64,000 nt of DNA from a virus, in the IMG/VR virus record IMGVR_UViG_3300047168_000120, positions 31,521 through 95,520 of that record. One strand, 5' to 3'. Shown one piece after another: positions 17,052 through 19,331 of the stretch. A program made the position numbers and the translations under genes. Every line of letters starts with the position of its first letter. The stretch's first letter is position 1. The notes below the pieces were generated by a model. The model did no database searches. It had not been told where the DNA came from and saw only the letters and a list, made by a program, of their open reading frames with translations.

Positions 17052-18045
17052 GCTGCCGGCCGTTACGCGCTTGCTACCCAAAATGCCGGTGCCGGCAGCA
17101 AACCAACGCCGGCTTCGGCCGGCCCGCGCGGCCCGTTATAGTTTGCCATCCGATAGCAAGATGCCGCGCGGTTTAAATTCGGCCCGTTCTCATTCATTCC
17201 CGGCCTGTGTTTTAGTGATGCCCCAGGAGATCGAGCCGGGGGAATGCGAGGGGTCGAGCCTGCGGCCGAAAAGGGAGTGTTTTCCCCAAGCTGCAATGCC
17301 GCAGGTATTTTTCAGCTCAGCGGGCCATCAAATCGACGACAACCGCAGATGCCTTGCCACACTGCGCTGCGGGGGCGCGGCCAACACCCAGGCGCCTTCC
17401 ATCAGCATCGCGCCGCGCCCCGTTTTTTTCCCAGCCCAAGGATCCATGAAATGAACCCACCATACGATTCCGGCCTTGCGCCGGGTGACGCCGCGGCCGG
17501 CCATGGTCTAATTGATAACCAGCAGAGCCCTGCAGGCCGCGGCAAACCTCTTCCGCCGCGGCGCTCCGGTGCCAAAGCGGTGCGCGGCCCGCGAAAAGGA
17601 GAAACCCAAAGGAGATCTGCCGCGCAGAATTCCGCATCAGATCCGACGCCCGATTCCGGCTCGCAACCCGCAATGAGAATGGCGCCGGATCTGGCTGCTG
17701 CCGGCCATAAACAATCTGAAGCCCCAGGGTTTCGCGCCGGCAGCAGCAAACCTATGTCTCCCGGTGCCAGGGTTGAAGCGAAATCCGATGGCTTACTGCG
17801 CCGGGACGACGAGGGTGCCGCCCAGCATTTACTTGCTCACCAACTAGCAGATGGCGGCGCCCCACCCATTAAGCGCCGCGGCCGCCCGCCCGGTGCCGCG
17901 AAATCCGCCAGAAATGGCGGCGAGGCCACCCCTCAAGAGCATGCAGCCCAAAATGGTCATGGCGGCCTCGAAGATTCCGGCGCCTGCGCCGGCGAGGAGG
18001 TTGGCCAAGATCATGACGAAAACCAATATCTAATAGCCGGCCTCC
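17052..18045 (+). ncRNA. Stem-loop TIGR-like guide array, 14 units
   Basis: Core CCN-N9-NG-N4-CCN-N9-NG closed by GC stems. Cores start at 17060, 17132, 17204, 17266 (5-nt loop), 17325, 17381, 17501, 17588, 17650, 17705, 17767, 17822, 17930 and 18005. Confidence 0.85.
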
Positions 18046-18914
18046 CCGAGCTTTTGACCGTCGATCGCGCTTCCCGCGCCCAGAAGCGCGCGCTTGCGGT
18101 GCGGATCGCCGCAATGGACCTGCCGACGGTGATTGACGGGCTGGTCAGCCTGCACCGAGAGCACCGGGCCTTGCAGCGCGCCGTGGGCGATATGACGCGG
18201 CGCATCAAGGCGGACGAGAAATGGGCGGCCCATGCGCGCCATGTACGCGATGGCATCGAAATCCCGGCGGGTAAGATGGCCGTCCCGAACGATGACGACG
18301 CAGCGTTCATCAAGACGCTGCGACACCGCCTTTATACGGGGCGTGCCGCTCTGGAGGCGCTGCGCAAGCAGGTGCAGGCCGAGCAGCTCATGCTGGTGAC
18401 CCGCCTGCCGGTCTATGACTGGGCACTTAGCATTCGTGGCTTCGGGCTGGCCAGCCTGGCGGCCATCGTGGGCGAAGCCGGCGATATAGGGAAATACGGC
18501 AATCCGGCGAAATTCTGGAAGCGGATGGGCTTGGCCGTGATCGACGGCGAGCGGCAGCGCAAGGTTGCCGGAAATCCCGAGCTTGCGGAGCGGCATGGCT
18601 TCCGGCCGCAGCGCCGCGCCGAGGTGCATGTGATCGGGGAAAACCTAATCCGGCAGAAAAGCCCCGGCTACTACGAGCTGTATGTCGCGCGCAAGGAATA
18701 CGAGCAGACCCGGCCGGACCCGGTGCCGTATTTGATCGTCGCGCACAAGCGGGCGCTTCGCTATGTCGAGAAGCGGCTGCTGAAGAAACTCTGGTCGGCC
18801 TGGCGCGTCGGTACGGGCGTCGCCGGCGCTGAGCCGGAGGGGGCTGAGACCGGAGTGTTGGTGATGCCCAATGAGGACTTGTCTCAGCCTCAACCAGAAA
18901 TGAGCCTGTCGTGA
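17451..18914 (+). CDS. TasA-like protein: IS110/IS116-type Nop RNA-binding domain, no nuclease domain seen
   Basis: IRGFGLASLAAIVGEAGDIGKYGNPAKFWKRMGLA and AHKRALRYVEKRLLKKLW after a coiled-coil; no DEDD/RuvC or HNH motif. AAGGA RBS before ATG 17451; alternative start 18114. Confidence 0.8.
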   Translation: MNPPYDSGLAPGDAAAGHGLIDNQQSPAGRGKPLPPRRSGAKAVRGPRKGETQRRSAAQNSASDPTPDSGSQPAMRMAPDLAAAGHKQSEAPGFRAGSSKPMSPGARVEAKSDGLLRRDDEGAAQHLLAHQLADGGAPPIKRRGRPPGAAKSARNGGEATPQEHAAQNGHGGLEDSGACAGEEVGQDHDENQYLIAGLPELLTVDRASRAQKRALAVRIAAMDLPTVIDGLVSLHREHRALQRAVGDMTRRIKADEKWAAHARHVRDGIEIPAGKMAVPNDDDAAFIKTLRHRLYTGRAALEALRKQVQAEQLMLVTRLPVYDWALSIRGFGLASLAAIVGEAGDIGKYGNPAKFWKRMGLAVIDGERQRKVAGNPELAERHGFRPQRRAEVHVIGENLIRQKSPGYYELYVARKEYEQTRPDPVPYLIVAHKRALRYVEKRLLKKLWSAWRVGTGVAGAEPEGAETGVLVMPNEDLSQPQPEMSLS

Positions 18915-19331
18915 CCAAGACGATGCCGCCACCCCATGACAAGGCGTCGCGGCAGGCTCATCCCGGAGCGCCGGCCAAGGTAGCGGAGTTTTCCTCGTGT
19001 ACGCTGCCGGCGCTCCGAATCTTTTCGCTGCTCATGGCCAGCTTGGCGTCGAAGCCCTTTGAAGTTTTGCTGCGGGCGGTGATCGGGAACGCGGCCATTC
19101 AAGTCTTGCATCCCAAGACGCGGCTGCCGCGTTCCCACAATTTATCGTTTCCGTGGGCCCAAAATGATTTGCAACCCAGTCGGGTCGTGCCCATGGATTC
19201 GATAAATCAGGCGCTGGCCTTAAATCTATCGTGCCCCAAAAGTGCGAAGCTGGCGCCTGCCCCACCTCCGCGCCGGCATGCCCATGATAATTGGTTGCCC
19301 CGCAAGTCTCTGTGCGCCGGCGCGGAGGTGG
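18842..19331 (+). ncRNA. Stem-loop TIGR-like guide array, 8 units
   Basis: Same core at 18850, 18915, 18975, 19038, 19095, 19158, 19218 and 19281; period 57-65 nt. Confidence 0.85.

What the first reader, a model, noticed from the sequence alone, without database searches (positions are those of the whole stretch)
17060..19312. Guide repertoire of 22 distinct spacer pairs with unknown targets
Seen (A/B): TTACGCGCT/AAATGCCGG, GTTATAGTT/ATAGCAAGA, GTGTTTTAG/AGGAGATCG, AAAAGGGAG/AAGCTGCAA, TCAAATCGA/CAGATGCCT, ACACCCAGG/TCAGCATCG, TGGTCTAAT/GCAGAGCCC, GCGAAAAGG/AAGGAGATC, ATTCCGGCT/CAATGAGAA, TAAACAATC/AGGGTTTCG, GGGTTGAAG/ATGGCTTAC, GCATTTACT/ACTAGCAGA, TCAAGAGCA/AAATGGTCA, AGATCATGA/ATATCTAAT, GAGTGTTGG/ATGAGGACT, AGACGATGC/ATGACAAGG, AGGTAGCGG/CGTGTACGC, GCTTGGCGT/TTGAAGTTT, TTCAAGTCT/AGACGCGGC, AAAATGATT/GTCGGGTCG, TAAATCTAT/AAAGTGCGA, ATGATAATT/GCAAGTCTC. 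Many spacers are clearly more AT-rich than the stems and surrounding genes. Inference: targets may be AT-rich DNA such as promoters, defence genes or competing elements.
Basis: partly seen in the sequence, partly recalled or inferred. Interest (0 to 1): 0.7.

Follow-up and report, generated by a model that had tools for sequence, protein, structure and literature searches.

The report
Phage stem-loop TIGR-TasA guide array

Summary
The stems covary strongly. The spacers have 44.9% G+C, against 58.2% for the phage and 81.5% for the stems.

The gene between the two sub-arrays encodes a nuclease-less Tas (Nop-domain) protein. It matches TasR (PDB 9MTY) by sequence (E 5.6e-9), and TasR is also the best match to its predicted fold. 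A model built only from these 22 units finds 174 more units, all on the tas strand, in 80 related viral loci. No spacer is shared with any relative.

This is therefore a stem-loop TIGR-TasA system, a published kind (Faure 2025; Xu 2026). This scan has already noted such systems in at least 42 other genomes.

The targets remain unknown. Matches of true A/B pairs equal those of shuffled pairs in four places:
- the 95.5-kb phage genome;
- 0.9 Mb of related loci;
- three proviruses that carry such arrays;
- 2.8 Mb of a family-level stand-in host (Acetobacteraceae, exact attB).

The host test has low power, because the stand-in is not the true host. The "AT-rich targets" reading follows from spacer composition only.

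The parts
17050..18046 (+). Upstream sub-array: units 1-14. It starts 18 nt after the stop of ORF 16475-17032 and runs into the 5' extension of the tasA reading frame.
   Evidence: spacing 55-108 nt
17050..17101 (+). unit 1 (A TTACGCGCT / B AAATGCCGG)
   Evidence: model R1 40.6 bits
17122..17173 (+). unit 2 (GTTATAGTT / ATAGCAAGA)
   Evidence: 37.7 bits
17194..17245 (+). unit 3 (GTGTTTTAG / AGGAGATCG)
   Evidence: 31.4 bits
17256..17308 (+). unit 4 (AAAAGGGAG / AAGCTGCAA), the only unit with a 5-nt linker
   Evidence: 30.6 bits
17315..17366 (+). unit 5 (TCAAATCGA / CAGATGCCT), with an imperfect stem; the weakest unit
   Evidence: 18.6 bits; fold
17371..17422 (+). unit 6 (ACACCCAGG / TCAGCATCG)
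   Evidence: 35.7 bits
17491..17542 (+). unit 7 (TGGTCTAAT / GCAGAGCCC)
   Evidence: 40.4 bits
17578..17629 (+). unit 8 (GCGAAAAGG / AAGGAGATC)
   Evidence: 35.7 bits
17640..17691 (+). unit 9 (ATTCCGGCT / CAATGAGAA)
   Evidence: 34.3 bits
17695..17746 (+). unit 10 (TAAACAATC / AGGGTTTCG)
   Evidence: 41.8 bits
17757..17808 (+). unit 11 (GGGTTGAAG / ATGGCTTAC)
   Evidence: 34.9 bits
17812..17863 (+). unit 12 (GCATTTACT / ACTAGCAGA)
   Evidence: 38.3 bits
17920..17971 (+). unit 13 (TCAAGAGCA / AAATGGTCA)
   Evidence: 37.7 bits
17995..18046 (+). unit 14 (AGATCATGA / ATATCTAAT)
   Evidence: 35.1 bits
17244..18914 (+). tasA reading frame: first ATG 17244, and the frame is open from 17157. Gene callers elsewhere start it at 17673 (413 aa). 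The conserved coiled-coil plus Nop core is 18042-18830. Units 4-14 lie in the non-conserved 5' extension. Unit 15 lies in the disordered 3' tail.
18840..19322 (+). Downstream sub-array: units 15-22. It ends 18 nt before ORF 19340-19672.
18840..18891 (+). unit 15 (GAGTGTTGG / ATGAGGACT), inside the last 25 codons of tasA
   Evidence: 38.1 bits; residues 265-284 of the model have pLDDT under 50
18905..18956 (+). unit 16 (AGACGATGC / ATGACAAGG), spanning the tasA stop codon
   Evidence: 34.9 bits
18965..19016 (+). unit 17 (AGGTAGCGG / CGTGTACGC)
   Evidence: 34.7 bits
19028..19079 (+). unit 18 (GCTTGGCGT / TTGAAGTTT)
   Evidence: 33 bits
19085..19136 (+). unit 19 (TTCAAGTCT / AGACGCGGC)
   Evidence: 39.4 bits
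19148..19199 (+). unit 20 (AAAATGATT / GTCGGGTCG)
   Evidence: 36.4 bits
19208..19259 (+). unit 21 (TAAATCTAT / AAAGTGCGA)
   Evidence: 36 bits
19271..19322 (+). unit 22 (ATGATAATT / GCAAGTCTC)
   Evidence: 30.2 bits
16475..17032 (+). Upstream 185-aa ORF of unknown function. It is conserved next to tas in the closest relatives and may be a partner gene.
   Evidence: tblastn: L081 57% identity, L001 33%, L002/L003 38%; no Pfam or PHROG family; no informative Atlas match

Best explanation
The stretch is a stem-loop TIGR array split into two sub-arrays, 14 units before and inside the 5' part of the gene and 8 units at and after its 3' end. The gene is a nuclease-less tasA, carried by a roughly 95-kb temperate phage of an uncultured Acetobacteraceae host from moss.

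Shown here:
- the unit anatomy, with box C = CCN, box D = (U/C)G, two 9-nt spacers and a 9-nt inter-spacer segment;
- the covarying closing stems;
- the Tas identity of the protein and the lack of any recognisable nuclease domain;
- the same RNA family next to tas, on the tas strand, in relatives;
- complete spacer turnover between relatives.

Inferred from the published family (Faure 2025, PMC12045711; Xu 2026, bioRxiv 10.64898/2026.09.09.750476; Guan 2026, bioRxiv 10.64898/2026.08.11.744272):
- the + strand transcript is cut into hairpin tigRNAs of about 50 nt;
- a TasA dimer holds one tigRNA;
- spacer A pairs with 9 nt of one DNA strand and spacer B with the adjoining 9 nt of the other strand, giving an 18-bp site with no flanking motif;
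- without a nuclease, binding blocks transcription or another process on DNA.

The 22 guides would then give 22 addresses. None lies in the phage itself. The addresses are most likely in the host chromosome or in rival mobile elements, at sites of about 45% G+C.
For: Anatomy and covariation.

Exclusivity in the genome.

Protein:
- phmmer to 9MTY_A TasR, E 5.6e-9 over residues 120-266;
- AlphaFold2 model with pLDDT 87.3, whose best Foldseek matches are TasR 9MTY (E 1.5e-6) and TasH complexes, followed by IS110-type recombinases;
- only a weak Transposase_20 Pfam hit and no nuclease family in the 556-aa frame.

Family context:
- Model R1, built from the window alone, finds 174 units at E up to 0.01 in 80 related viral loci. 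All are on the tas strand and within about 1.5 kb of tas.
- The plain motif scan gives 302 units on that strand against 17 on the other.
- There are 266 distinct spacer pairs in relatives and none is shared with the window. The nearest differs at 6 of 18 positions.
- Against the closest relative (Tas 72% identical), only tas, the upstream gene and one 51-nt linker align. The arrays do not.

Intragenic units are a clade trait. The tas frame stays open a median of 105 codons upstream of the core, against 22 in the other frames, and holds 201 of 286 upstream units in 98 relatives. This matches Xu 2026.

The box C/D letters match the published ones: CCA and UG in ParTasR.

Three contigs from two metatranscriptome runs of one study lie on units 1-5 and 8-11 without a difference. 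This shows presence in RNA libraries, not proof of transcription.
Against: No target was found, so guiding is inferred from family membership and not shown for this locus.

Processing, loading on TasA and DNA binding were not observed.

Unit 5 has a poor stem.

No sigma-70-like promoter was found in 16300-19800, so the transcription start is unknown.

The host assignment is at family level only: ahcY is 83% identical to an Acidocella MAG, and the exact 44-nt attB core occurs in 7 of 121 Acetobacteraceae genomes sampled. The negative host search is therefore weak.
Confidence: 0.85

Rival explanations
1. The hairpins are structural or regulatory RNA or DNA elements, such as terminators, REP-like repeats or translational couplers for the ORFs that cover them. 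The variable loop segments would carry no address.
For: No target was found in any set searched. The arrays are covered by open frames.
Against: The loop has four invariant motif positions at fixed spacing that match published box C and box D letters. The elements occur only next to Tas genes, on the same strand. Loop segments turn over completely between relatives while the frame stays. Hairpins lack T-runs beyond chance.
Confidence: 0.04
2. The guides work like box C/D sRNAs on RNA, for example host rRNA, tRNA or mRNA start regions, and not on DNA.
For: The Nop fold and the box C/D-like frame fit. Three of 44 spacers have a perfect 9-nt complement in the 16S/23S rRNA of a family-level relative, against 1 in each of two controls. 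Spacer B holds ATG in 7 of 22 units, against 2.8 expected.
Against: The rRNA excess is within chance, and never are both spacers of one unit involved. The ATG excess is not seen in 409 guides of relatives (42 against 39.3 expected). No methyltransferase partner is encoded nearby. Published TasR does not act on RNA, and TasA binds DNA.
Confidence: 0.04
3. The system is a true TIGR-TasA array, but it regulates the phage's own genes through imperfect, seed-type matches and does not address foreign DNA.
For: Two of the nine 3-mismatch sites in the phage lie on start regions of genes just downstream of the array: unit 20 at 19662 and unit 3 at 21081, the terL start. Among 4-mismatch sites in the rcA+B order, 16% lie in start regions, against 8% for shuffled pairs.
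Against: The total numbers of 0-4-mismatch sites equal those of shuffled pairs. Two of nine has p about 0.17. Published work shows single mismatches at central positions impair engagement. Half-site 9-mers are neither enriched nor purged in the phage: 31 observed, 28.3 expected.
Confidence: 0.07

Closest known systems
Stem-loop TIGR-TasA systems: PlTasA from a Peromyscus leucopus gut contig, Bifidobacterium longum BlTasA and Minisyncoccota MbTasA (Faure 2025 PMC12045711; Xu 2026 bioRxiv 10.64898/2026.09.09.750476; Guan 2026 bioRxiv 10.64898/2026.08.11.744272)
   Same: Tandem hairpins with variable palindromic stems. Two 9-nt spacers, each between a box C and a box D motif. A 9-nt inter-spacer segment. 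Sub-arrays on both sides of and inside the tas reading frame. A nuclease-less Nop-domain protein with a coiled coil. A phage setting.
   Different: With 22 units it seems large for a stem-loop array, judging from the general trend reported in Xu 2026, not from counts I made. Box C reads CCN, not the CUU reported for PateTasR. It belongs to an alphaproteobacterial phage clade not characterised experimentally. No experimental data exist for this locus.
Dual-repeat TIGR-TasR/TasH (TaTasR PDB 9MTY; SpTasH PDB 9W04)
   Same: Nop core (best sequence and fold matches). [quoted passage not shown] Tandem 9-nt spacers read on opposite DNA strands.
   Different: No conserved edge or loop repeats here. 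Stems replace edge repeats. No RuvC or HNH domain.
IS110-family recombinases with bridge RNA (IS621 PDB 8WT6/8WT9; ISCro4)
   Same: Related C-terminal RNA-binding domain (Pfam Transposase_20 weak hit; Foldseek ranks 12-16). Guide loops framed by stems.
   Different: No DEDD/RuvC-like catalytic domain. Many one-loop units, not one two-loop bridge RNA. No element ends.
Archaeal and eukaryotic box C/D sRNPs (Nop5/Nop56/58 with fibrillarin)
   Same: Nop fold. Bipartite RNA with two guides, each ahead of a box D.
   Different: No K-turn or L7Ae signature, no fibrillarin. Published relatives target DNA.
Nuclease-free CRISPR effectors that silence by binding (type IV, type V-M, Cas12k)
   Same: The proposed mode of action: RNA-guided binding without cutting, carried on mobile elements.
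   Different: Unrelated proteins and RNAs. A single long spacer with PAM, against two 9-nt spacers without a motif.

Membership tests
Stem-loop TIGR array | [quoted passage not shown] | tested here: met
   22 units; CC and G invariant twice per unit at fixed spacing; 9-nt spacers
Stem-loop TIGR array | [quoted passage not shown] | tested here: met
   86.8% of cells paired against 51.6% in shuffles; all 10 pairs change on both sides. MFE folds of 20 units all close with an 8-13-bp stem.
Stem-loop TIGR array | Inter-spacer loop of about 9 nt | tested here: met
   NG + 4 nt + CCN = 9 nt in 21 units, 10 nt in unit 4; compare Xu 2026
Stem-loop TIGR array | Array lies beside or inside a tas gene, on the same strand | tested here: met
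   also in 80 relatives
Stem-loop TIGR array | Transcribed and processed into single-hairpin tigRNAs bound by Tas | tested here: inconclusive
   Contigs of two metatranscriptome runs lie on units 1-5 and 8-11. Contigs show neither RNA ends nor strand, and DNA carry-over is not excluded.
Tas protein (TasA type) | Nop domain with coiled-coil dimerisation helices related to solved Tas proteins | tested here: met
   9MTY_A E 5.6e-9; model pLDDT 87.3 with long helices 27-70 and 95-119; Foldseek top 10 are all TasR or TasH
Tas protein (TasA type) | No RuvC or HNH nuclease domain | tested here: met
   No nuclease family in the 556-aa frame. The region upstream of the core is not conserved among 25 homologues.
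Tas protein (TasA type) | RNA-guided binding of an 18-bp DNA site through both spacers | not testable with these tools
   No natural target was found. Binding needs EMSA or a reporter assay.
IS110 transposon with bridge RNA | N-terminal DEDD/RuvC-like catalytic domain | tested here: not met
   No DEDD_Tnp_IS110 hit; only a weak Transposase_20 hit
CRISPR array | Conserved direct repeats separating spacers | tested here: not met
   No tandem repeat and no repeat family beyond chance pairs

The most novel reading that the evidence does not exclude
The 22 guides form a natural multi-site silencing programme. TasA, translated through its own guide hairpins, would be sent to about 22 sites of roughly 45% G+C in the Acetobacteraceae host or in rival prophages and plasmids, to shut down host or competitor genes during infection or lysogeny. 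If the sites could be identified from host genomes of the same moss samples, this would be the first natural target set of a TIGR-TasA system.
Probability: 0.3. Interest if true: 0.7.

Novelty: new member of a known kind. Interest (0 to 1): 0.3.

Why it matters
The kind is published, and thousands of such arrays are catalogued (6,685 arrays, 2,559 of them stem-loop, in Xu 2026). The locus itself is therefore not a discovery.

Its value is as a test case for the open question of what TIGR-TasA guides aim at in nature:
- it is a nearly complete temperate phage (CheckV 94%);
- it has 22 guides;
- it has a defined attP (the 5' half of tRNA-Ser-UGA) that narrows the host to Acetobacteraceae;
- it recurs in several moss metagenomes that should also hold the host.

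The negative results here rule out self-regulation by near-perfect matches. In two co-resident proviruses of one isolate genome, they also rule out mutual targeting between Tas-carrying elements.

Tried and rejected
1. Self-targets. I searched four arrangements, each on both strands, which also covers A+rcB: rcA+B, B+rcA, rcB+rcA and rcA+rcB. Gaps were 0-2 nt, over the 95.5-kb genome. Counts at 0/1/2/3/4 mismatches for rcA+B were 0/0/0/5/50, against 0/0/0.4/5.6/52.7 for shuffled pairs. The other arrangements gave the same picture.

2. All 432 motif-defined guides (window plus relatives) against 0.9 Mb of fetched loci. True pairs equalled shuffled pairs. One apparent multi-hit guide was a false motif match inside tas.

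3. Three proviruses that carry such arrays, two of them from one isolate genome. There were no self or cross matches at up to 1 mismatch.

Counts were 0/0/4/88 and 0/1/7/98, against 0/0.4/6.3/110 and 0.05/0.5/7.5/123 for shuffled pairs. Power is low because ahcY is only 77% identical, so this is not the true host.

5. IMG/VR exact scans for units 17 (both orders), 13 and 1 gave 2, 3, 12 and 0 hits. The hits were unrelated or AT-rich phages. Three of them are one codon-biased hexapeptide (VYARYL). This is background.

6. rRNA complementarity, A-B complementarity, start-region enrichment of partial matches, ATG excess in spacer B and purging or enrichment of half-site words were all within chance or not replicated.

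7. RNA runs. Parts of the 4-kb stretch without RNA contigs cannot be read as silent (one search is unrelated; the data are). The DNA runs X7 and X9 gave only identical fragments, so they say nothing about spacer turnover.

8. Target geometry. The literature is ambiguous. '8-nt 3' overhangs' in Faure 2025 fits neither order exactly. 'Displaced 3' unpaired segment' in PMC13421893 favours rcA+B. I therefore tested both.

A single-protein scan of viral contigs found nothing.

10. Promoter scan: no sigma-70-like site.
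Full report
**The observation**

Aligned over 53 columns, the units share one frame:
- a variable G+C-rich arm;
- CCN;
- 9 nt (spacer A);
- NG;
- 4 nt (5 in unit 4);
- CCN;
- 9 nt (spacer B);
- NG;
- the complementary arm.

Only the two CC and the two G are invariant. The 10 flanking pairs are formed in 86.8% of cells, against 51.6% in shuffles (0 of 500). Every pair changes on both sides. 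Sliding the partners destroys the pairing.

No tandem or direct repeat exists at sequence level. Single-unit folds all close with an 8-13-bp stem around a loop of about 33 nt. Inner pairs are weak and inconsistent.

A covariance model of the units recovers exactly these 22 in the whole 95.5-kb genome. Otherwise it finds only one 21-bit candidate, outside the window.

Spacers have 44.9% G+C. The genome has 58.2% (z = -4.6) and the stems 81.5%.

**The protein**

The frame 17244-18914 has a conserved core from about 18042. That core matches TasR of PDB 9MTY at E 5.6e-9. It has more than 260 homologues, mostly unnamed or called IS110-like, in alphaproteobacterial phages and prophages.

An AlphaFold2 model (pLDDT 87.3) matches TasR and TasH structures first, and IS110-type recombinases after them. 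Pfam gives only a weak Transposase_20 hit and no nuclease domain. The protein is therefore a TasA.

The sequence upstream of the core is not conserved among homologues, yet the frame stays open. In 98 non-redundant relatives the tas frame runs a median of 105 codons upstream of the core, against 22 in the other frames. It contains 201 of 286 upstream units.

This is the 'intragenic tigRNA in a disordered N-terminal region' layout described by Xu et al. 2026. Here units 4-14 lie in that extension, unit 15 lies in the disordered C-terminal tail, and unit 16 spans the stop codon.

**Relatives**

A profile of Tas homologues fetched 80 viral loci and 36 loci in bacterial genomes or MAGs.

The model built from the window alone finds 174 units in the viral loci. 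All are on the tas strand, next to tas. A plain motif-plus-stem scan gives 302 on that strand and 17 on the other.

Of 266 distinct spacer pairs in the viral relatives, none resembles a window pair. The best differs at 6 of 18 positions.

Against the closest relative, a 3.6-kb contig binned with an Acidocella MAG (Tas 72% identical), only tas, the upstream ORF and a 51-nt linker align. The arrays do not.

So the frame is conserved and the spacers are private to each lineage.

**What it is**

It is a stem-loop TIGR array with TasA, as defined by Faure et al. 2025 and catalogued by Xu et al. 2026. The box letters agree with the published CCA/UG.

By analogy with that work:
- the transcript yields hairpin tigRNAs;
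- a TasA dimer binds one of them;
- the two spacers pair with adjoining 9-nt stretches on opposite DNA strands;
- binding represses transcription.

None of these steps is shown for this locus. Contigs from two metatranscriptome runs of one study lie on units 1-5 and 8-11. That shows only that the sequence is present in RNA libraries.

**Targets**

In the phage's own genome, no arrangement gives a site with fewer than 2 mismatches. Counts at every mismatch level equal those of the 462 shuffled pairings. Half-site words are neither purged nor enriched.

The same holds in three further sets:
- all 432 guides against 0.9 Mb of related loci;
- three array-bearing proviruses, two of them from the same isolate;
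- 2.8 Mb of a stand-in host.

The stand-in was chosen as follows:
- The phage has a tyrosine-integrase module whose attP core is the 5' half of tRNA-Ser(UGA).
- The exact 44-nt core occurs in 1 of 401 sampled Alphaproteobacteria but in 7 of 121 sampled Acetobacteraceae.
- The phage's ahcY gene is most like that of an Acidocella MAG (83%), and 72-79% identical to others.
- G438 has the exact core and a single-contig chromosome.

G438 is not the true host, so the test has low power for non-conserved sites.

Four exact scans of IMG/VR gave background-level, unrelated hits. Tests for rRNA targets, start-codon regions and A-B pairing were negative or not replicated.

The opposite-strand order is not stated unambiguously in the papers I could read, so both orders were always tested.

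**Verdict**

The system is a new member of a known kind. The 'AT-rich targets' idea follows only from spacer composition. Low G+C may equally serve to keep the loop unpaired inside an 81% G+C stem. Natural targets stay unknown, as they do for the family at large.

This scan has already reported stem-loop TIGR-Tas loci in at least 42 other genomes.

Noticed in passing
window 14461-14508, minus strand: A solitary hairpin with the full unit frame: 8-bp perfect stem, CCC, 9 nt, TG, 4 nt, CCT, 9 nt, AG. It sits right after the stop of the minus-strand ORF 14508-14783, 2.5 kb from the array and on the other strand. Of 229 motif matches outside the array, none other has a stem longer than 4 bp (about 0.1 expected at 8 bp). 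It could be a 23rd, orphan guide or a terminator.
   Followed up: partly
G000:C1:8394-8445, minus strand (outside the window): A weak match to the unit model (21.4 bits, E 0.03). It was not examined further.
   Followed up: no
window 17541-17591 and 17871-17894: The gaps between units in the tasA 5' extension encode basic peptide motifs. GKPLPPRRSGAKAVRGP is the only part of the array region that aligns with the closest relative (84% nt identity), and it recurs as P(I)RRKAVRR or RKGARR in many homologues. KRRGRPPG resembles an AT-hook (resemblance recalled from memory). Both suggest the extension is translated.
   Followed up: partly
window 16475-17032: A 185-aa ORF of unknown function directly upstream of the array. 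It is conserved in the same position in the closest Tas relatives (57%, 33%, 38% identity) and has no family in Pfam, PHROGs or the ESM Atlas. It may be a partner gene.
   Followed up: partly
units 3 and 8 (17225-17233, 17609-17617): The B spacers of units 3 and 8 share the 8-mer AGGAGATC, shifted by one base (about 0.06 expected among 44 spacers). The word looks like a ribosome-binding site.
   Followed up: no
G000:C1:20801-20845 and 19467-19556 (outside the window): The attP core equals the 5' half of tRNA-Ser(UGA) and lies next to a tyrosine integrase. The phage also carries a full tRNA-Ser(UGA), tRNA-Thr and tRNA-Met. The exact core is enriched in Acetobacteraceae genomes (7/121 against 1/401 class-wide).
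   Followed up: yes
window 38128-39435: The phage ahcY (SAH hydrolase) gene is 83% identical at DNA level to that of an Acidocella MAG, and 72-79% identical to other Acetobacteraceae and Methylobacterium. This is a host-lineage marker.
   Followed up: partly
window 15516-16430, 20327-21061, 21081-22679: The TIGR-TasA locus sits inside the packaging module, between a terminase small-subunit-like gene and terL. A sulfotransferase-like ORF (19659-20330) and an OmpR-type winged-helix regulator (20327-21061) lie between them.
   Followed up: partly
related loci L001-L116: In 95 of 102 relatives the tas frame is the longest open frame upstream of the conserved core. Seventy percent of upstream units lie inside it, so guide hairpins within the tasA reading frame are the rule in this clade.
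   Followed up: yes
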